Shown one piece after another: positions 27,249 through 57,954 of a stretch of 64,000 nt of DNA; the stretch's first letter is position 1, and each line of letters starts with the position of its first letter. Under the pieces are notes generated by a model. It searched no databases. It was not told where the DNA came from and saw only the letters and a program-made list of their open reading frames with translations. The stretch is from the human T2T-CHM13v2.0 reference genome, Homo sapiens: assembly GCF_009914755.1 (NCBI RefSeq), contig NC_060933.1, one strand, 5' to 3'. The position numbers and the translations under genes were made by a program.

Positions 27249-27422
27249 CTTGTCCAGTGCTTCAATATGTGCACCATGGGAAAGCAGTTTTTCTGCCAGT
27301 GAGGTGCTCTCACTATACACGGCATAATGGAGAGCAGTGTTGCCGTAGATATCCTTAAGGTTTGGATTGGCGCCATGTTCCAGCAGAATAACGGCACAAG
27401 CCTCTTCCTGGCAATGGACAGC
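27249..27422 (-). CDS. ANKRD20A: ANKRD20A exon 3 ([58 protein letters not shown])
   Basis: 174 nt; acceptor gacag|GCT, donor AAG|gtatag; LLEHGANPN and GNTALHYA ankyrin motifs; phases 0/0. Confidence 0.95.
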
Positions 27423-27584
27423 CTGTCCGTGTTAGACCAAGAAACAGATTGTAAATTCCAAGAATTCAAAATACACATTCCACAGGTTTCACCAACTAGT
27501 TATATGTAAATGAGATCAATTTATTTTAATTCTATATATGTAAATCAAATCCATGTCATGCTAAAAGAGTTGGCTCTAATATAC

Positions 27585-27699
27585 CTGTATCAAAGGCGTT
27601 CTGTTTTCTTTGTCACAGACATCAATCTGGCATTTTCTGTTAACCAGGAGAGTGACCACTTGCACATGGCCACTGGCACAGGCCAAGTGTAGAGCAGTT
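27585..27699 (-). CDS. ANKRD20A: ANKRD20A exon 2 ([39 protein letters not shown]), ankyrin repeat
   Basis: 115 nt; acceptor ctctcatag|A, donor CAG|gtat; TALHLA ankyrin motif; phases 2/0. Confidence 0.95.
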
Positions 27700-28104
27700 C
27701 TATGAGAGTAAGAGGATTTTTTAAGAAACTGTAGTACAATATCTCAAAACATACAATCATTCATGTAATGTAAAAACTGAATAGCATGTTTTTCCTCTGC
27801 CTTCAAAACAAATAAATTTTTTGAAGAAAGTACAATACTTACTCTTATTGCTCACTGCCTTAATGAAAACAGCAGCCTATTTGAGTAGAAAGAGCTCAGT
27901 CTTTGGATTCGGTTCAACTAGGGCTTGAGTCCTACTTTAAGCCTTGACACTTACCAACTATTGCTTAGCCTTTCTGTACCTCAACTTCCTCATTAATAAA
28001 GATGACAATAGTAGCTATCTCATAGGACACCATCATGATGCTTAAATGAGAAGCTATGTAAAGTATGCAGAACAGTTCCTACGACAACTCAATAATTGTA
28101 AGAT

Positions 28105-28386
28105 TTTTGTTTTTTGAGACAAAGTCTCACTCTTTTGCCCAGGCTGGAGTGCAATGGTGTAACTATACCTGGAACTCCTGGGTCAAATGATCTCCATCCC
28201 CAGCCTCCTGAGTAGCTGGGACTACAGATGAGCACCAGCATGCCCAGCTATTTATTTAAAAATTTTTGTAGAGTAAGAATCTCACTTTGTTGCCCAGGCT
28301 GGTCTCAAACTCCTGGCATCAAGCAATCCTCTCACCTCAGCCTCCCAAAGTTCTGGGATTACAGGTGTGAGCCACTGCACCCAGCC
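28105..28386 (-). mobile_element. AluJ
   Basis: Diverged dimeric Alu. Confidence 0.82.
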
Positions 28387-30293
28387 AGATATTATAATTA
28401 TTACTATTACTACTACTTAACAAAACCATTTTAATTAGGTAGAATGATACAATTACACCTACTTTGCAAGATGACTTAACGAGTAGGTCACATTTTAACA
28501 CCTCTGACATTGGAATGCCACTTATAATTCATGATTTGTTATAACTATAATTGGTAGCATTTTAAAAATTATCTTATTGATATATAAAATATCGGGGCAT
28601 CACGCAATCCATGAGACCTTACATTAAGTAGAATATGGTATACTCAGCAGGTCTAGGGCAGTTCTAGGCATGTAACTGAAACTTAAATACATTTTAGTTC
28701 TTAAAGGTACTATGGGGAAAGAGCACTGAAATAACAATAATGCATTTTTTAAACAAATTAATTATTTGATTTTCAAACAACTTGAAGCCAAAGGAAACTC
28801 ATGATTCAAATGAATACATATGGCTCATTGTATTCAATATTTATACTTAGAAAATATATGCAAATAAGACTTTCCAATGATTAATATTAGTATTTAAGAC
28901 TGACAAACTTTCGAAAGAGCAGTTAAAGGTTATCTTCTACTATTTTCTAACTTCAGAAATGCTTTTGTTTGAAAGGTGGGAGATAAAGTTTCAAGGAGAT
29001 TAAGTCCCAATATTCCTATTTTAAATCTCTCAGCTTGTGCAGGCGGGGCAGGTAAACATGAAGTGTTTAAGGATGGACGGGTCCTGAGAGATGACAGAAT
29101 ATGTCTGCTACATAGCAGGTACTCAGGTTATGCTTGATCCATAAATGGAATGAAAGAATGGATAAATACAGTTGGGGAGTTCATTATTTTTAAATAAACT
29201 CCTATAAAGCAATATTTTTGCAATAGTAATTATTTATATGTGTTGTTTTATTTTTAAAGAATACAATTAAAATGAAATGATTATGTTTGCATAAATGGAA
29301 CGAGTATATAAGCAAAACATATGTACATAATAAAATATATAGATAATAAAATCTGGAAACAGATAAAAACATTCCCTTTTTACTTCTGAAGAGGCTAAAA
29401 GCTCAAAGAAGATAACAACACACACAATAATGATAAAAAATAGAAAGTGAGAAATTATTTTCATCAGCACAAGATTCATATTCCTCTCTTCCCAAGGATT
29501 AGTCCATTAATAATAAACTTTTACTAGAAGTTTTGTACTCACTGCAGCAATCACAGATAAGAAAAAGGAAAAAAACTTTACTTAAAATACAAATGCTCAG
29601 AAATTACAAATTTTATATTTTGTACATATTTTTGCTAAAACAAGACCATAGTATGTTTGTGTATGTATAATTTAACTAATTTTTTCTCCTTGCTAGCTAT
29701 AACAAAATACATCTTTGCACATCAACGTACTTCTGTATCTATTGCCACCTTCAGTGGTCACATATTATTCCATCCTATGGATGCAACTGAAATTTATTTA
29801 TAGGATCCATTCTATGGGTTCTCTTTAAAATAAGTACTGTGAAAAATAAAGTGCATGTATCTTTATTTCCTAAGGGTATTTTAGTATAATGGAATTGGTG
29901 GGTAAAGGGCATACACATTTTTTAAATGTAGTACTTACCATTTTCAAATGAGTACTTTGAAAAGTAATCAGCAACTTTAAGCAGCAGTATAAAACATCCT
30001 CACAAATATTGTGGATAGAAAACTGTTTCATTCCTCTTTTAGTTTAAATTCTTATACCAGAAATGCGAAGGATTTTTTCCTATGTATATAAGTAACTTGT
30101 AGATCTGGAAAAAGGTACTTTGCCCACTTTTAGAGTGTTTGATAATTTGATTTGAAAGAATTCCCTGTAAAATGAAGAGGTACTTTTCATCTAATGTGTA
30201 TATATAACTGATATATATAACATATTATATGTGTTATATATGTATACATATCAGTAATATATATATATCTTATGATATATAATAAACAACATA

Positions 30294-55700: not shown

Positions 55701-56314
55701 ACTACAAATTTATAGTAAGGATGGTACTATCAAAACAGTATGGTACTCTCAATAAAAGGGGCGGGGGAGAGACAAGAGAGATGAACGAATGAGACAGACA
55801 GACATAGACAAGTGAAACAGAATAGAGAAATCATAAATAAATTCACGCGTTTACGGTCAATTCATTTTTAACAAAGGCCCCAAGAACACACCTTCGGGAA
55901 GGACAATCTCTTCAATAAACTGTACTAGGAAAACCCAACACCCACATGTACAAGAATACATCTAGGCCATTACCTTACCATATACAAAAATCTACTCAAA
56001 ATAAAGATTTAAATACAGGACCTGAAACTATGAAACTACCAGAGAAGAAAACATAGGATAAATGCTTCATGAAATTGGTTAGGACAAGGAATTTTCAAAT
56101 AGACATCAAAAGCACAAGCAACAAAAGCAAAGATGTAATTACATTAAACTTAAAACCTTTTCCAAAGCAGAGGAAGCAATCAGCATAATGAAGACAGAAC
56201 CCGAGAATGGAAGAAAGTCTTTGCAGCTATGCATCAGGCAAGAGGTTAATACACAAAATATCTAAAGAACTCAAACTACTCAAAAGTGAAAATACAAATA
56301 ATCTTATTTTTAAA
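52713..56314 (+). mobile_element. Old degenerate L1 (L1M/L1MA-type) spanning endonuclease to late ORF2
   Basis: L1 motifs: gagtggctgaatggatt, gcaggagtagctatactta, gacaaacccacagctaacat, ctggaggcatcacactacctga; many frameshifts. Confidence 0.85.
53568..53797 (-). mobile_element. AluY, 5'-truncated with internal deletion, inserted in L1
   Basis: caagctccgcctcccggg, gttagccaggatggtctcgatc; caacac(a)tttt on both flanks. Confidence 0.88.
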
Positions 56315-57550
56315 AATCTACCCAAAACTTTTGTCCCCCACCATTTCCCCACCTTCTTTTCCCGACCGCATTTCGCCCTCTCCCTCTCACCACCCTTTCT
56401 CTTCCTCCATCTACCCCCAAACGTTTTCACCGTTTTCTCCCCACCATCATTTCGTTTTCTCCCCGCCCCGCCCCCGTCATTTCGCAAAGCCTTCTCTATT
56501 CTCCCGCTCACCACGCTTTTCCCCAACCATCTACCCAAACACTTTCTCCCGTTTTTTCCCACCGTGTTTTCCCCCTTCTCCCTGGCCACCCTCTTTTTTC
56601 CCCCTCCTGCTGTCATCATGCCCTTTTCCTCCTCCATCTAAGCAAAAACATTTTCCCCCCGTCTTTTCCCAAAGCCTTTTCCCTACTCCTGCTGCTCACC
56701 ACCCTCTTTTCCCCCTTTATCTACCCAAAAACTGTTTTCCTCATTGTCTTTCCTCCTGCTCCTCCTTGCCACTCTTTCCCTTCTCCATCTACCCAAAAAC
56801 ATTTCCCCACCATCTTTTCTCAAAGCCTTCTCCCCAATCCTGCTCACCTCTCTCTTCCCCCCATCTACCCCCCAAAATTTCCCCATCTTTTCACAAAGTC
56901 TGCCCCCTCTTCCCACTCGTCCTCTTCTCTCCCCTATCCTGCTTGCCACCCTTTTTTTTGCCCTGCATCTATCCCAAACTATTTTCCCGTCTTTTTCCCA
57001 CCCTTCTTTCCCTGCTCCCTTCTCGCCACCCTCCTTTCTCCTCCTCGTCACCCTCTTTCCCTCCTCCATCTACCCAAACACGTTTTACCTACCGTCTTTT
57101 CACCACCATCTTTCTTTTCTGCCACTGTTTTTTCGCAAAACCTTGTCTTCCTCCCGCTAGTTACCCTCTTTTTCCTTCTCCCACTTGCTATCTTCTTCTG
57201 CTCCTCTATCTACCCAAAAACTTCTCTCCCCACTGTCTTTTCACAAAACCCTCTCTCCCTACTGCTAGCCCATTTCCCCCACCTCACCACTCTCTCCTCT
57301 CCCCAATTGCCACCATCTTTTCCCCCTTCATCCACCCATAAACTTTCTATCCACCGTCTTTCTGCAAAACCTTCCCTCACTCCCGCTCCACACCCTGTCT
57401 TTCCACCTCCATCTACCCAAAACCTTTTTTCCCCACCATCTTTTCCCCATCGTCTTTTTGCAACGCCTTCTCCTCCTCGCTATCCTTTTTTCCCTTTGGC
57501 AATAACCAGACTCTTTACCCACCCCTCTATCTATCCCAAAACTATTTTCC
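56315..57550. repeat. CT-rich degenerate tandem array, ~13 units anchored on (c)atctacccaaaaac
   Basis: Anchors near 56317, 56409, 56529, 56635, 56719, 56786, 56862, 56966, 57067, 57208, 57328, 57410, 57529; plus strand is nearly G-free. Confidence 0.85.
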
Positions 57551-57557
57551 TCTTCCT

Positions 57558-57700
57558 ACCCCTCCAGCCGCGCTGCAATCGCAATCTCCACTGCCACCAC
57601 CAACCATAGTGAGGCGAGCTGCGCCGCTGTGCCGTGTCTCAAGCCTCCAGCATATGGCCGGTGACTCCTTTTCCTGGTCCTCTAAGCTGGGCACTGAGCA
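57558..57700 (-). repeat. ACRO1-like satellite unit (left arm)
   Basis: Reverse complement aligns to 58140-58275 (atgctggaggct..cctc.ct...g.tggtggtg.ca...gaga); ACRO1 name from recall. Confidence 0.55.
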
Positions 57701-57751
57701 GCTCAACAGTAAAACACCGAACCCTAAAAAAAAAAAAACCGTAACACCTTT

Positions 57752-57954
57752 TCAGCATCATTTATATACGGAGGTTATGCGCATGCCGGTTCCTAGACTT
57801 CATGTTCTGATTGCATGAGAGCAAGTCTTAAGATAACCAATCACAGCATGAAAATAAAGTCCAATCAGAGTAGGCCTAGAGGTTTTTCTCTCATCCAATC
57901 AGAACATGTAGTCCAGGATCCGTAACTTCAGTATATAAAGCATGCTGAGGAAGT
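57752..57954. promoter_or_regulatory. Candidate symmetric bidirectional TATA/CCAAT promoter
   Basis: TATATAAA on minus (57761-57768) and plus (57932-57939); CCAAT at 57837, 57861, 57895; NRF1-like tgcgcatgc at 57778; ETS-like ggaagt at 57949. Activity not shown. Confidence 0.6.

What the first reader, a model, noticed from the sequence alone, without database searches (positions are those of the whole stretch)
27249..57770. Candidate chimeric gene: mirror promoter > PARG exons > GTF2I exon > ANKRD20A, all on the minus strand and phase-compatible
Seen: minus TATA at 57761, a possible donor GG|gtagga at 57560, then PARG, GTF2I and ANKRD20A exons in the same orientation. PARG exon 45560 ends in phase 2 (AG), like ANKRD20A exon 1, so splicing to exon 2 gives [40 protein letters not shown]..., a new 32-aa N-terminus. 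It is also in frame with GTF2I copy 1 because that acceptor is shifted by 1 nt (AG|G ATC ATG). Both GTF2I donors are phase 0, in frame with ANKRD20A exon 3 or 4. Inference: duplicon juxtaposition may have built a fusion transcript. Phase matches occur by chance one time in three, and no expression evidence is available here.
Basis: partly seen in the sequence, partly recalled or inferred. Interest (0 to 1): 0.8.

Follow-up and report, generated by a model that had tools for sequence, protein, structure and literature searches.

The report
Annotated mosaic pseudogene upstream of ANKRD20A1
The promoter, PARG-derived and GTF2I-derived exons already form an annotated non-coding mosaic transcript next to ANKRD20A1, and nothing available here shows that it splices on into ANKRD20A1 to make a fusion protein.

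Summary
The anatomy is real. But the first half of the proposed chimera, from the TATA promoter exon through a PARG-derived exon to two tandem GTF2I exon-2 copies, is already RefSeq LOC642929 (NR_027472.2). That model uses a different acceptor (49723) and donor (49500) and skips the PARG-derived exon 45620-45560 on which the main fusion depends. Its longest ORF is 61 aa.

The link into ANKRD20A1 has no support:
- ANKRD20A1 has its own CpG-island first exon.
- Frame compatibility is at chance level: 16 of 30 upstream-exon/acceptor pairs leave the ANKRD20A frame reachable.
- The textbook read-through junction, 40343>27699, is out of frame.
- The fusion's ATG is a recent ACG>ATG change, present in 4 of 5 chr9 copies.
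- The PARG-derived codons evolve without constraint.
- Five literature searches found no such chimera.

A low-level read-through RNA remains possible. The units lie 6.6 kb apart on one strand and the annotated 3' end lacks a poly(A) signal. No transcript data were available here. Interest is low.

The parts
57752..57948 (.). Mirrored core promoter. Two outward-facing CCAAT-type box + TATATAAA cores: minus-strand TATA at 57768-57761, plus-strand TATA at 57932-57939. Three ATTGG boxes lie between them.
   Evidence: arms match 33/38 and 22/26; the family has dozens of copies in segmental duplications.
57560..57738 (-). LOC642929 exon 1 (RefSeq). The start is 30 nt downstream of the TATA box; the donor is GGG|GTAGGA. 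It holds two upstream ATGs.
   Evidence: Hub annotation.
44138..51335 (-). PARG-derived duplicon, 93-94% identical to chr10:50713468-50720844. It holds only two PARG exons.
   Evidence: no catalytic-signature-like motif anywhere in the window.
49500..49723 (-). LOC642929 exon 2 (RefSeq). It contains the PARG-derived exon a (ancestral acceptor 49715, ancestral donor after 49636).
45560..45620 (-). PARG-derived exon b. Both splice sites are intact, but it is in no annotated transcript. 19 of 20 residues match solved PARG chains (W>R).
42859..43282 (-). LOC642929 exon 3 (RefSeq), outside the PARG duplicon.
   Evidence: Hub annotation.
42588..42733 (-). LOC642929 exon 4 (RefSeq), in a stretch 84% identical to chr7:75917775-75919079.
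41106..41180 (-). LOC642929 exon 5 (RefSeq), in a stretch 84% identical to chr7:75919069-75919225.
40343..40494 (-). GTF2I exon-2-type copy (upstream one). It has its own ATG; donor ATG|GTGAGA, phase 0.
38255..38525 (-). Last exon of LOC642929: the second GTF2I exon-2-type copy. Its acceptor is shifted by 1 nt. The ancestral donor ACG|GTCAGA after 38405 is read through. There is no poly(A) hexamer before the annotated end at 38255.
33876..34699 (.). Inverted Alu pair at the point where related loci carry 35-64 kb more sequence. This is the probable deletion breakpoint that moved the GTF2I module close to ANKRD20A.
   Evidence: hub repeat mask 33951-34286 and 34339-34630.
30751..31800 (.). CpG island over ANKRD20A1 exon 1 (31647-31005; coding 31207-31005).
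   Evidence: hub annotation.
27585..27699 (-). ANKRD20A1 exon 2. It starts in phase 2; the Pfam Ank profile starts at its position 4 on the first residue.
27249..27422 (-). ANKRD20A1 exon 3. It starts in phase 0 and encodes Ank repeats.

Best explanation
There are two separate transcription units on the minus strand.

The upstream unit is the already annotated transcribed pseudogene LOC642929. A TATA/CCAAT promoter belonging to a widely duplicated pericentromeric element drives a non-coding mosaic RNA. Its exons come from three sources: the promoter duplicon, a 7.2-kb piece of PARG inserted behind it (one exonised PARG exon, with newly arisen splice sites), and a GTF2I-derived duplicon with two tandem exon-2 copies.

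The downstream unit is ANKRD20A1, transcribed from its own CpG-island first exon.

The two units came to lie 6.6 kb apart through a deletion of some 35-64 kb at an inverted Alu pair, in the ancestor of the five chr9 copies. The reading-frame compatibility between upstream exons and ANKRD20A exons 2-4 is coincidental.

What is shown and what is inferred:
- Shown here: the anatomy, the origins of the pieces and the phases.
- Taken from RefSeq: the LOC642929 splice chain.
- Inferred: the independence of the two units and the deletion.
For: LOC642929 model
- The RefSeq exon chain has GT-AG at all 6 junctions. It is 1471 nt with a longest ORF of 61 aa.
- It uses donor 49500 (8/9 consensus match) rather than the ancestral PARG donor after 49636 (6/9), and it skips exon 45620-45560.

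Origins of the pieces
- The PARG piece covers window 44138-51335 at 93-94% identity to chr10.
- Promoter copies and GTF2I-like pieces lie on one strand about 23 kb apart on chr18 and chr21. PARG-piece homologues were found only at five chr9 sites including the window, one chr2 site and two chr10 sites. This suggests the PARG insertion came later.

No constraint on the PARG-derived frame
- 7/80 nt and 6/26 aa differ in exon a.
- 2/61 nt and 1/19 aa differ in exon b.
- The ATG is ACG in the chr9:44.4 Mb copy, the chr2 copy and both chr10 copies.

ANKRD20A1 independence
- The only two CpG-island-like stretches in the 64 kb lie at and just upstream of ANKRD20A1 exon 1.
- The ANKRD20A1-4 mRNAs aligned in a supplement of PMC5898914 start in that exon (passages).
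- RefSeq lists 1 of 1 transcript for each gene (hub table).

Chance-level frames
- 16 of 30 exon/acceptor pairs leave the native frame reachable.
- 40343>27699 is out of frame.

Deletion
- 7 related loci carry 35.6-63.9 kb between the two sides of window position ~34600-34700.
Against: - No transcript data could be examined, so independence of the two units is inferred, not shown.
- The annotated 3' end at 38255 has no canonical or common variant poly(A) hexamer in its last 66 nt. The first AATAAA/ATTAAA downstream on this strand is at 35600. Real transcripts may therefore run further towards ANKRD20A1.
- The units are tandem, on the same strand and only 6.6 kb apart, which is the setting in which read-through chimeras arise.
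- Exon 45620-45560 keeps good splice sites (donor 7/9; 14/16 pyrimidines before the acceptor) in all five chr9 copies.
- Annotation in 96-100% identical duplications is handicapped by multi-mapping reads, so '1 of 1 transcript' is weak negative evidence.
Confidence: 0.7

Rival explanations
1. Low-level read-through chimera without a protein. RNA polymerase starting at 57738 sometimes runs past 38255 and through the ANKRD20A1 promoter. Cis-splicing then joins a LOC642929 donor, most likely the last one after 40343, to ANKRD20A1 exon 2. The result is a rare RNA that is non-coding or degraded.
For: - The two units share a strand and lie 6.6 kb apart (hub table).
- There is no poly(A) hexamer at the annotated end.
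- Read-through RNAs are described for adjacent same-strand genes under 10 kb apart (PMC4422297 and PMC5053695; abstract starts seen in the listing).
- 40343>27699 stops 19 codons after the junction, and such a transcript would look non-coding.
Against: - No junction evidence of any kind here.
- Nine AATAAA/ATTAAA hexamers lie on the minus strand between 35600 and 33010.
- RefSeq lists no such isoform (hub table).
- No paper found.
Confidence: 0.2
2. One reading: the upstream TATA promoter acts as an alternative promoter of ANKRD20A1. It would give an isoform in which the 67 residues encoded by exon 1 are replaced either by a 32-residue PARG-derived start (45560>27699) or by a GTF2I-derived start (40343 or 38405 > exon 3 or 4).
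For: - The phases fit and the ORFs are open.
- The split codon at 45560|27699 gives the same residue as the native junction.
- The Ank profile begins at the first residue of exon 2, so the repeats would stay intact.
- The ATG has A at -3.
- The whole arrangement is kept in all 4 other chr9 copies.
Against: - The annotated transcript does not use exon 45620-45560.
- The splice would have to skip 5 annotated acceptors and pass a CpG-island promoter.
- Two upstream ORFs precede the ATG.
- The ATG is a recent CpG transition missing in 1 of 5 chr9 copies.
- PARG-derived codons changed at 7 of 45 positions, without sign of constraint.
- The frame match is at chance level.
- 32 residues from inside the PARG catalytic domain have no plausible function of their own; no catalytic-signature-like motif is present.
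Confidence: 0.07
3. Regulatory coupling without splicing. Transcription of LOC642929 running into the ANKRD20A1 CpG island modulates ANKRD20A1 (promoter interference or chromatin opening), so the juxtaposition matters for expression rather than for protein sequence.
For: - Tandem orientation with a 6.6-kb gap (hub table).
- No poly(A) signal at the annotated end.
- The gap was shortened by a deletion specific to the chr9 copies.
Against: Purely inferential. No expression, chromatin or perturbation data were available here.
Confidence: 0.03

Closest known systems
LOC642929, RefSeq NR_027472.2 ('general transcription factor II, i pseudogene', transcribed pseudogene)
   Same: Same promoter exon (57738-57560), same PARG-derived region and same two GTF2I exon-2 copies, all on the minus strand (hub table).
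   Different: It adds exon 45620-45560, drops exons 3-5, and continues into ANKRD20A1. None of this is in the RefSeq model.
Read-through (transcription-induced, conjoined-gene) chimeric RNAs between adjacent same-strand genes
   Same: Tandem same-strand units 6.6 kb apart. The definition in PMC4422297 is adjacent genes under 10 kb apart on one strand (abstract start, listing).
   Different: The defining joined transcript has not been shown. The usual junction, last upstream donor to exon 2 of the downstream gene (a pattern recalled from the literature, not checked here), is out of frame.
Hominoid chimeric genes built by segmental duplication, such as USP6 from TBC1D3 and USP32 (recalled, not checked here)
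   Same: Pieces of unrelated genes were brought into one orientation by duplication and deletion.
   Different: Those cases have a demonstrated fused ORF and expression. Here the demonstrated product is non-coding (longest ORF 61 aa).
PARG and its chr10 duplicate (the name PARGP1 is recalled)
   Same: Window 44138-51335 is 93-94% identical to chr10:50713468-50720844 and includes two exons and their introns. Exon b matches solved PARG chains at 19 of 20 residues.
   Different: Only about 45 codons of PARG are present, 7 of them changed. No catalytic-signature-like motif is present.

Membership tests
Unprocessed, transcribed mosaic pseudogene (LOC642929) | Derived from genomic (intron-containing) copies of parent genes | tested here: met
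   7.2 kb is collinear with chr10 PARG genomic DNA, introns included, at 93-94%. GTF2I-type exons lie in a duplicon with 30 or more copies.
Unprocessed, transcribed mosaic pseudogene (LOC642929) | Parent reading frames not maintained | tested here: met
   Longest ORF in the 1471-nt model is 61 aa. 7 of 45 PARG-derived codons are changed.
Unprocessed, transcribed mosaic pseudogene (LOC642929) | Transcript evidence | not testable with these tools
   Rests on the RefSeq BestRefSeq record in the hub table. The papers found only list the gene.
Read-through / transcription-induced chimera | Adjacent genes, same strand, short gap | tested here: met
   38255 to 31647 is 6.6 kb, both on the minus strand (hub table).
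Read-through / transcription-induced chimera | A transcript containing exons of both genes | not testable with these tools
   No cDNA or RNA-seq resource here. No mention in print in 5 searches.
Read-through / transcription-induced chimera | Weak or absent termination of the upstream unit | tested here: inconclusive
   No poly(A) hexamer in the last 66 nt before 38255, but 9 canonical hexamers lie between 35600 and 33010.
PARG (poly(ADP-ribose) glycohydrolase) protein family | Catalytic domain with the glycine-rich ... QEE signature (motif recalled) | tested here: not met
   0 signature-like matches in six frames of the window. Pfam finds no family in the two exon peptides. Only residues 246-265 of chain 4a0d_A are matched.
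GTF2I (TFII-I) protein family | GTF2I-type repeat domains | tested here: not met
   Pfam finds no family in the 48-aa exon-2-type peptide, and there is no PDB match. Only exon-2-type copies are present. The parent exon on chr7 was not recovered.
ANKRD20A / ankyrin-repeat proteins | Ankyrin repeats | tested here: met
   Pfam Ank scores 32.6 bits for exon 2 and 46.1 bits for exon 3, both above the 21.1 cut-off. The annotated CDS translates without stops.

The most novel reading that the evidence does not exclude
The widely duplicated TATA/CCAAT mirror promoter serves as a tissue-restricted alternative promoter for ANKRD20A1-4 (germline, early embryo or tumour). Splicing 45560>27699 would then give a hominid-specific ANKRD20A isoform. 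Its first 32 residues would come from a PARG fragment and its start codon would have arisen de novo by an ACG>ATG change. This became possible only after an Alu-associated deletion brought the units within 6.6 kb of each other.
Probability: 0.05. Interest if true: 0.5.

Novelty: already known. Interest (0 to 1): 0.2.

Why it matters
If the fusion existed, it would be a documented case of duplicon shuffling giving a brain- and testis-expressed, recently expanded human gene family a new N-terminus and a second promoter.

As it stands, the result is mainly a clean-up. The promoter-PARG-GTF2I mosaic is an annotated non-coding pseudogene transcript, and the in-frame fits to ANKRD20A1 are what chance predicts.

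The by-products may help people annotating chr9 pericentromeric duplications:
- the map of duplicon borders;
- the derived splice sites and ATG;
- the deletion at an inverted Alu pair;
- the strongly conserved core of the mirror promoter.

Tried and rejected
- Inverted-repeat search of 50000-64000 with a 12-nt seed found only 4 inverted-repeat pairs resembling Alu sequence (by eye). The mirror promoter needed a small-word BLAST to show up.
- Literature, main texts only:
  - 'LOC642929' gave 6 papers, gene lists only (passages of three read).
  - 'ANKRD20A1' + 'fusion' gave 20 papers. None of the 15 listed shows such a chimera. Passages of PMC12882164 and PMC5898914 were read.
  - 'ANKRD20A' + 'chimeric transcript' gave 1 unrelated paper.
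  - 'ANKRD20A' + 'GTF2I' + 'PARG' gave 0.
  - The read-through/conjoined search listed no paper with ANKRD20A among the 15 shown.
  - Supplementary fusion tables of other papers were not searched and could hold such junctions.
- The idea that the promoter is the first exon of a POTE-type gene was rejected. 5 kb at chr2:130563200 is collinear with window 57913-53171 but holds no such ORF.
- PARG exon a peptide gave no PDB match at E<=1. Its PARG origin rests on DNA identity.
- GTF2I-type peptide gave no PDB match and no Pfam family.
- The chr7 parent of the GTF2I exon-2 copies was not recovered. It was not among the 40 scored candidates, nor in the 1.6 kb fetched at chr7:75919000. The GTF2I label therefore rests on RefSeq's name.
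As a result, the chr9:106.65-106.72 Mb, chr18 and chr21 arrangements are known only from search coordinates.
- Rfam found nothing in the finding's span.

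
Full report
**Observation**

- The minus strand carries TATATAAA at 57768-57761, 30 nt upstream of the RefSeq start of LOC642929 at 57738. Exon 1 ends after 57560 with G|GTAGGA.
- A PARG-like exon has a TAG|G acceptor at 49715 and an AAA|GTGAAC donor after 49636.
- A second PARG-like exon spans 45620-45560, with TAG|A and AAG|GTAACA. 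Its 20-residue translation matches solved PARG chains at 19 of 20 positions, for example 4a0d_A residues 246-265.
- Two tandem copies of a GTF2I exon-2-type exon lie at 40494-40343 and 38525-38405.
- The joined models behave as claimed. 45560>27699 opens an ORF from the ATG in the PARG-like exon that stays open to the window edge (325 aa in the window). 45560>38525 is in frame. Both GTF2I-type donors fit exons 3 and 4.
- The 'mirror promoter' is real. Two outward-facing CCAAT-type/TATA cores match each other at 33/38 and 22/26 positions, with the plus-strand TATA at 57932-57939.

**What is already annotated**

The hub's table shows that the promoter exon, the PARG-derived region and both GTF2I-type exons are the seven exons of the RefSeq transcribed pseudogene LOC642929 (NR_027472.2).
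- All six of its junctions are GT-AG.
It enters the PARG-derived exon 8 nt earlier (49723) and leaves it 136 nt later (after 49500, AAG|GTAACT, 8/9 consensus). It does not use the ancestral PARG donor (6/9).
- It skips exon 45620-45560 altogether and goes on to exons at 43282-42859, 42733-42588 and 41180-41106.
- The model is 1471 nt with a longest ORF of 61 aa.

So the 'fusion transcript built by duplicon juxtaposition' exists, but it is known and non-coding.

**Origins of the pieces**

- The PARG piece is window 44138-51335, collinear with chr10:50713468-50720844 at 93-94% identity. Related copies were found only at five chr9 sites including the window, one chr2 site and two chr10 sites.
- The stretch 51336-57913 belongs to a duplicon with many copies in pericentromeric and other duplicated regions. 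It is collinear at 82-86% with chr2:130563200-130568199, which holds no POTE-type ORF.
- The stretch from about 44137 down to about 34700 is a GTF2I-type duplicon. It has 30 or more copies at 87-100% identity on chr1, 2, 3, 4, 9, 13, 14, 15, 20, 21, 22 and Y.
- Parts of that stretch, including RefSeq exons 4 and 5, are 82-84% identical to chr7:75917088-75919243. I could not recover the chr7 parent of the exon-2 copies, so the GTF2I label rests on RefSeq's name.
- On chr18 and chr21, a promoter copy and GTF2I-type pieces lie on one strand about 23 kb apart (coordinates). This suggests the promoter/GTF2I-type association is older than the PARG insertion. That is an inference from coordinates only.

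**How the mosaic came to sit next to ANKRD20A1**

- In 7 related loci (chr2, chr20, chr9:76.9 Mb, chr13, chr14, chr15, chrY) the sequences matching window 38100-34701 and 34578-31700 lie 35.6-63.9 kb apart. In the five chr9 ANKRD20A copies they are adjacent.
- The junction falls in an inverted Alu pair (33876-34699, 79% self-complementary).
- The parsimonious reading is a deletion in the ancestor of the chr9 copies. It left the end of LOC642929 6.6 kb from ANKRD20A exon 1.
- All four other chr9 copies keep all 11 features tested, from promoter exon to ANKRD20A exon 3. The chr2 copy keeps 8 of 11 within the 33.1 kb fetched.

**Evidence bearing on a coding fusion**

The chr9:44.4 Mb copy, the chr2 copy and both chr10 PARG copies have ACG there, while four chr9 copies have ATG, a CpG transition.
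- The RefSeq donor after 49500 is derived in the same four copies. The AAG of the RefSeq acceptor differs from both chr10 copies and the chr2 copy.
- The PARG-derived codons show no constraint. In exon a, 7 of 80 nt and 6 of 26 residues differ from the chr10 copy. In exon b, 2 of 61 nt and 1 of 19 residues differ. This is about the duplicon-wide divergence.
- Two short upstream ORFs (4 and 18 codons) precede the ATG.
- No PARG catalytic-signature-like motif (recalled motif) occurs in any frame of the window. Pfam finds nothing in the PARG-like or GTF2I-like peptides.
- ANKRD20A1 has its own promoter context. The only two CpG-island-like stretches in the 64 kb are 30751-31800 and 32051-32600. 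The ANKRD20A1-4 mRNAs aligned in a supplement of PMC5898914 begin in that exon (passages).
- Frame compatibility is not informative. Across 10 upstream exon variants and 3 ANKRD20A acceptors, 16 of 30 pairs leave the native frame reachable. For exon 2, only 2 of 10 do.
- The junction expected for a read-through (last upstream donor after 40343 to exon 2) is out of frame and stops after 19 further codons.

**What keeps the question open**

- The annotated 3' end at 38255 has no poly(A) hexamer, canonical or common variant, in its last 66 nt and no A-run downstream. The first AATAAA/ATTAAA on this strand is at 35600. The real RNA may therefore extend towards ANKRD20A1.
- The two units are tandem and 6.6 kb apart, the setting in which read-through chimeras are reported (abstract starts of PMC4422297 and PMC5053695 in the listing).
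- Exon 45620-45560 keeps good splice sites in all five chr9 copies.
- A fusion at exon 2 would keep the ankyrin repeats. The Pfam Ank profile starts at its position 4 on the first residue of exon 2.
- No transcript resource was available here. Five literature searches found no ANKRD20A chimera, but they cover main texts only. Supplementary fusion tables were not searched.

**Verdict**

- I put 0.7 on two independent units with coincidental frame matches.
- I put 0.2 on a rare, non-productive read-through RNA.
- I put 0.03 on regulatory coupling without splicing.
- Novelty: already known for what is demonstrable. Interest is 0.2.

Noticed in passing
window 57800-57900 (core of the mirror promoter), and one search hit list: The 100-bp stretch with the three ATTGG boxes is 90-99% identical in dozens of copies (chr2, 5, 7, 9, 13, 14, 15, 17, 18, 20, 21, 22). 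The adjacent 300 bp in those copies is only about 67-75% identical. This suggests constraint or gene conversion on a shared bidirectional promoter core. Many copies also hit on both strands, so the palindrome is a family trait.
   Followed up: partly
window 57932-58110, plus strand: The plus-strand arm of the mirror promoter has its own TATATAAA (57932-57939) and a donor-like GGAGCG|GTAGGA about 170 nt downstream, resembling the minus-strand exon 1 donor. No gene is annotated on that side.
   Followed up: no
window 33876-34699: An inverted Alu pair lies at the point where 7 related loci carry an extra 35.6-63.9 kb. This is the probable Alu-associated deletion specific to the five chr9 ANKRD20A copies.
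   Followed up: partly
window 38255 (3' end of NR_027472.2): The annotated 3' end has no poly(A) hexamer in the last 66 nt and no genomic A-run after it. The RefSeq model may be 3'-incomplete.
   Followed up: partly
window 20580-20686, minus strand: A full-length U6 snRNA match (70.5 bits against a gathering score of 44; model positions 1-105) lies inside an ANKRD20A1 intron. Whether it is a gene copy or a pseudogene was not examined.
   Followed up: no
G000 chr18:14.80-14.88 Mb, chr21:11.78-11.86 Mb, chr17:27.95-28.03 Mb, chr9:106.65-106.72 Mb: Older copies (76-89% identity) of both the promoter and the GTF2I-type pieces lie near each other at these four sites (same strand shown for chr18, chr21 and chr17), without a PARG piece. 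The LOC642929-type unit may be an old family of duplicated transcripts (coordinates).
   Followed up: no
L029 (chr2:95.44 Mb copy) and chr9:44.39 Mb copy: The chr2 copy has a 2-nt deletion inside the PARG-derived exon b. The chr9:44.4 Mb copy lacks both the derived ATG and the derived donor after 49500.
   Followed up: yes
window 56600-57480: The first intron of LOC642929 just downstream of exon 1 is internally repetitive, with purine-rich units of about 14-22 nt on the transcribed (minus) strand (TRF rows; many self-hits).
   Followed up: no
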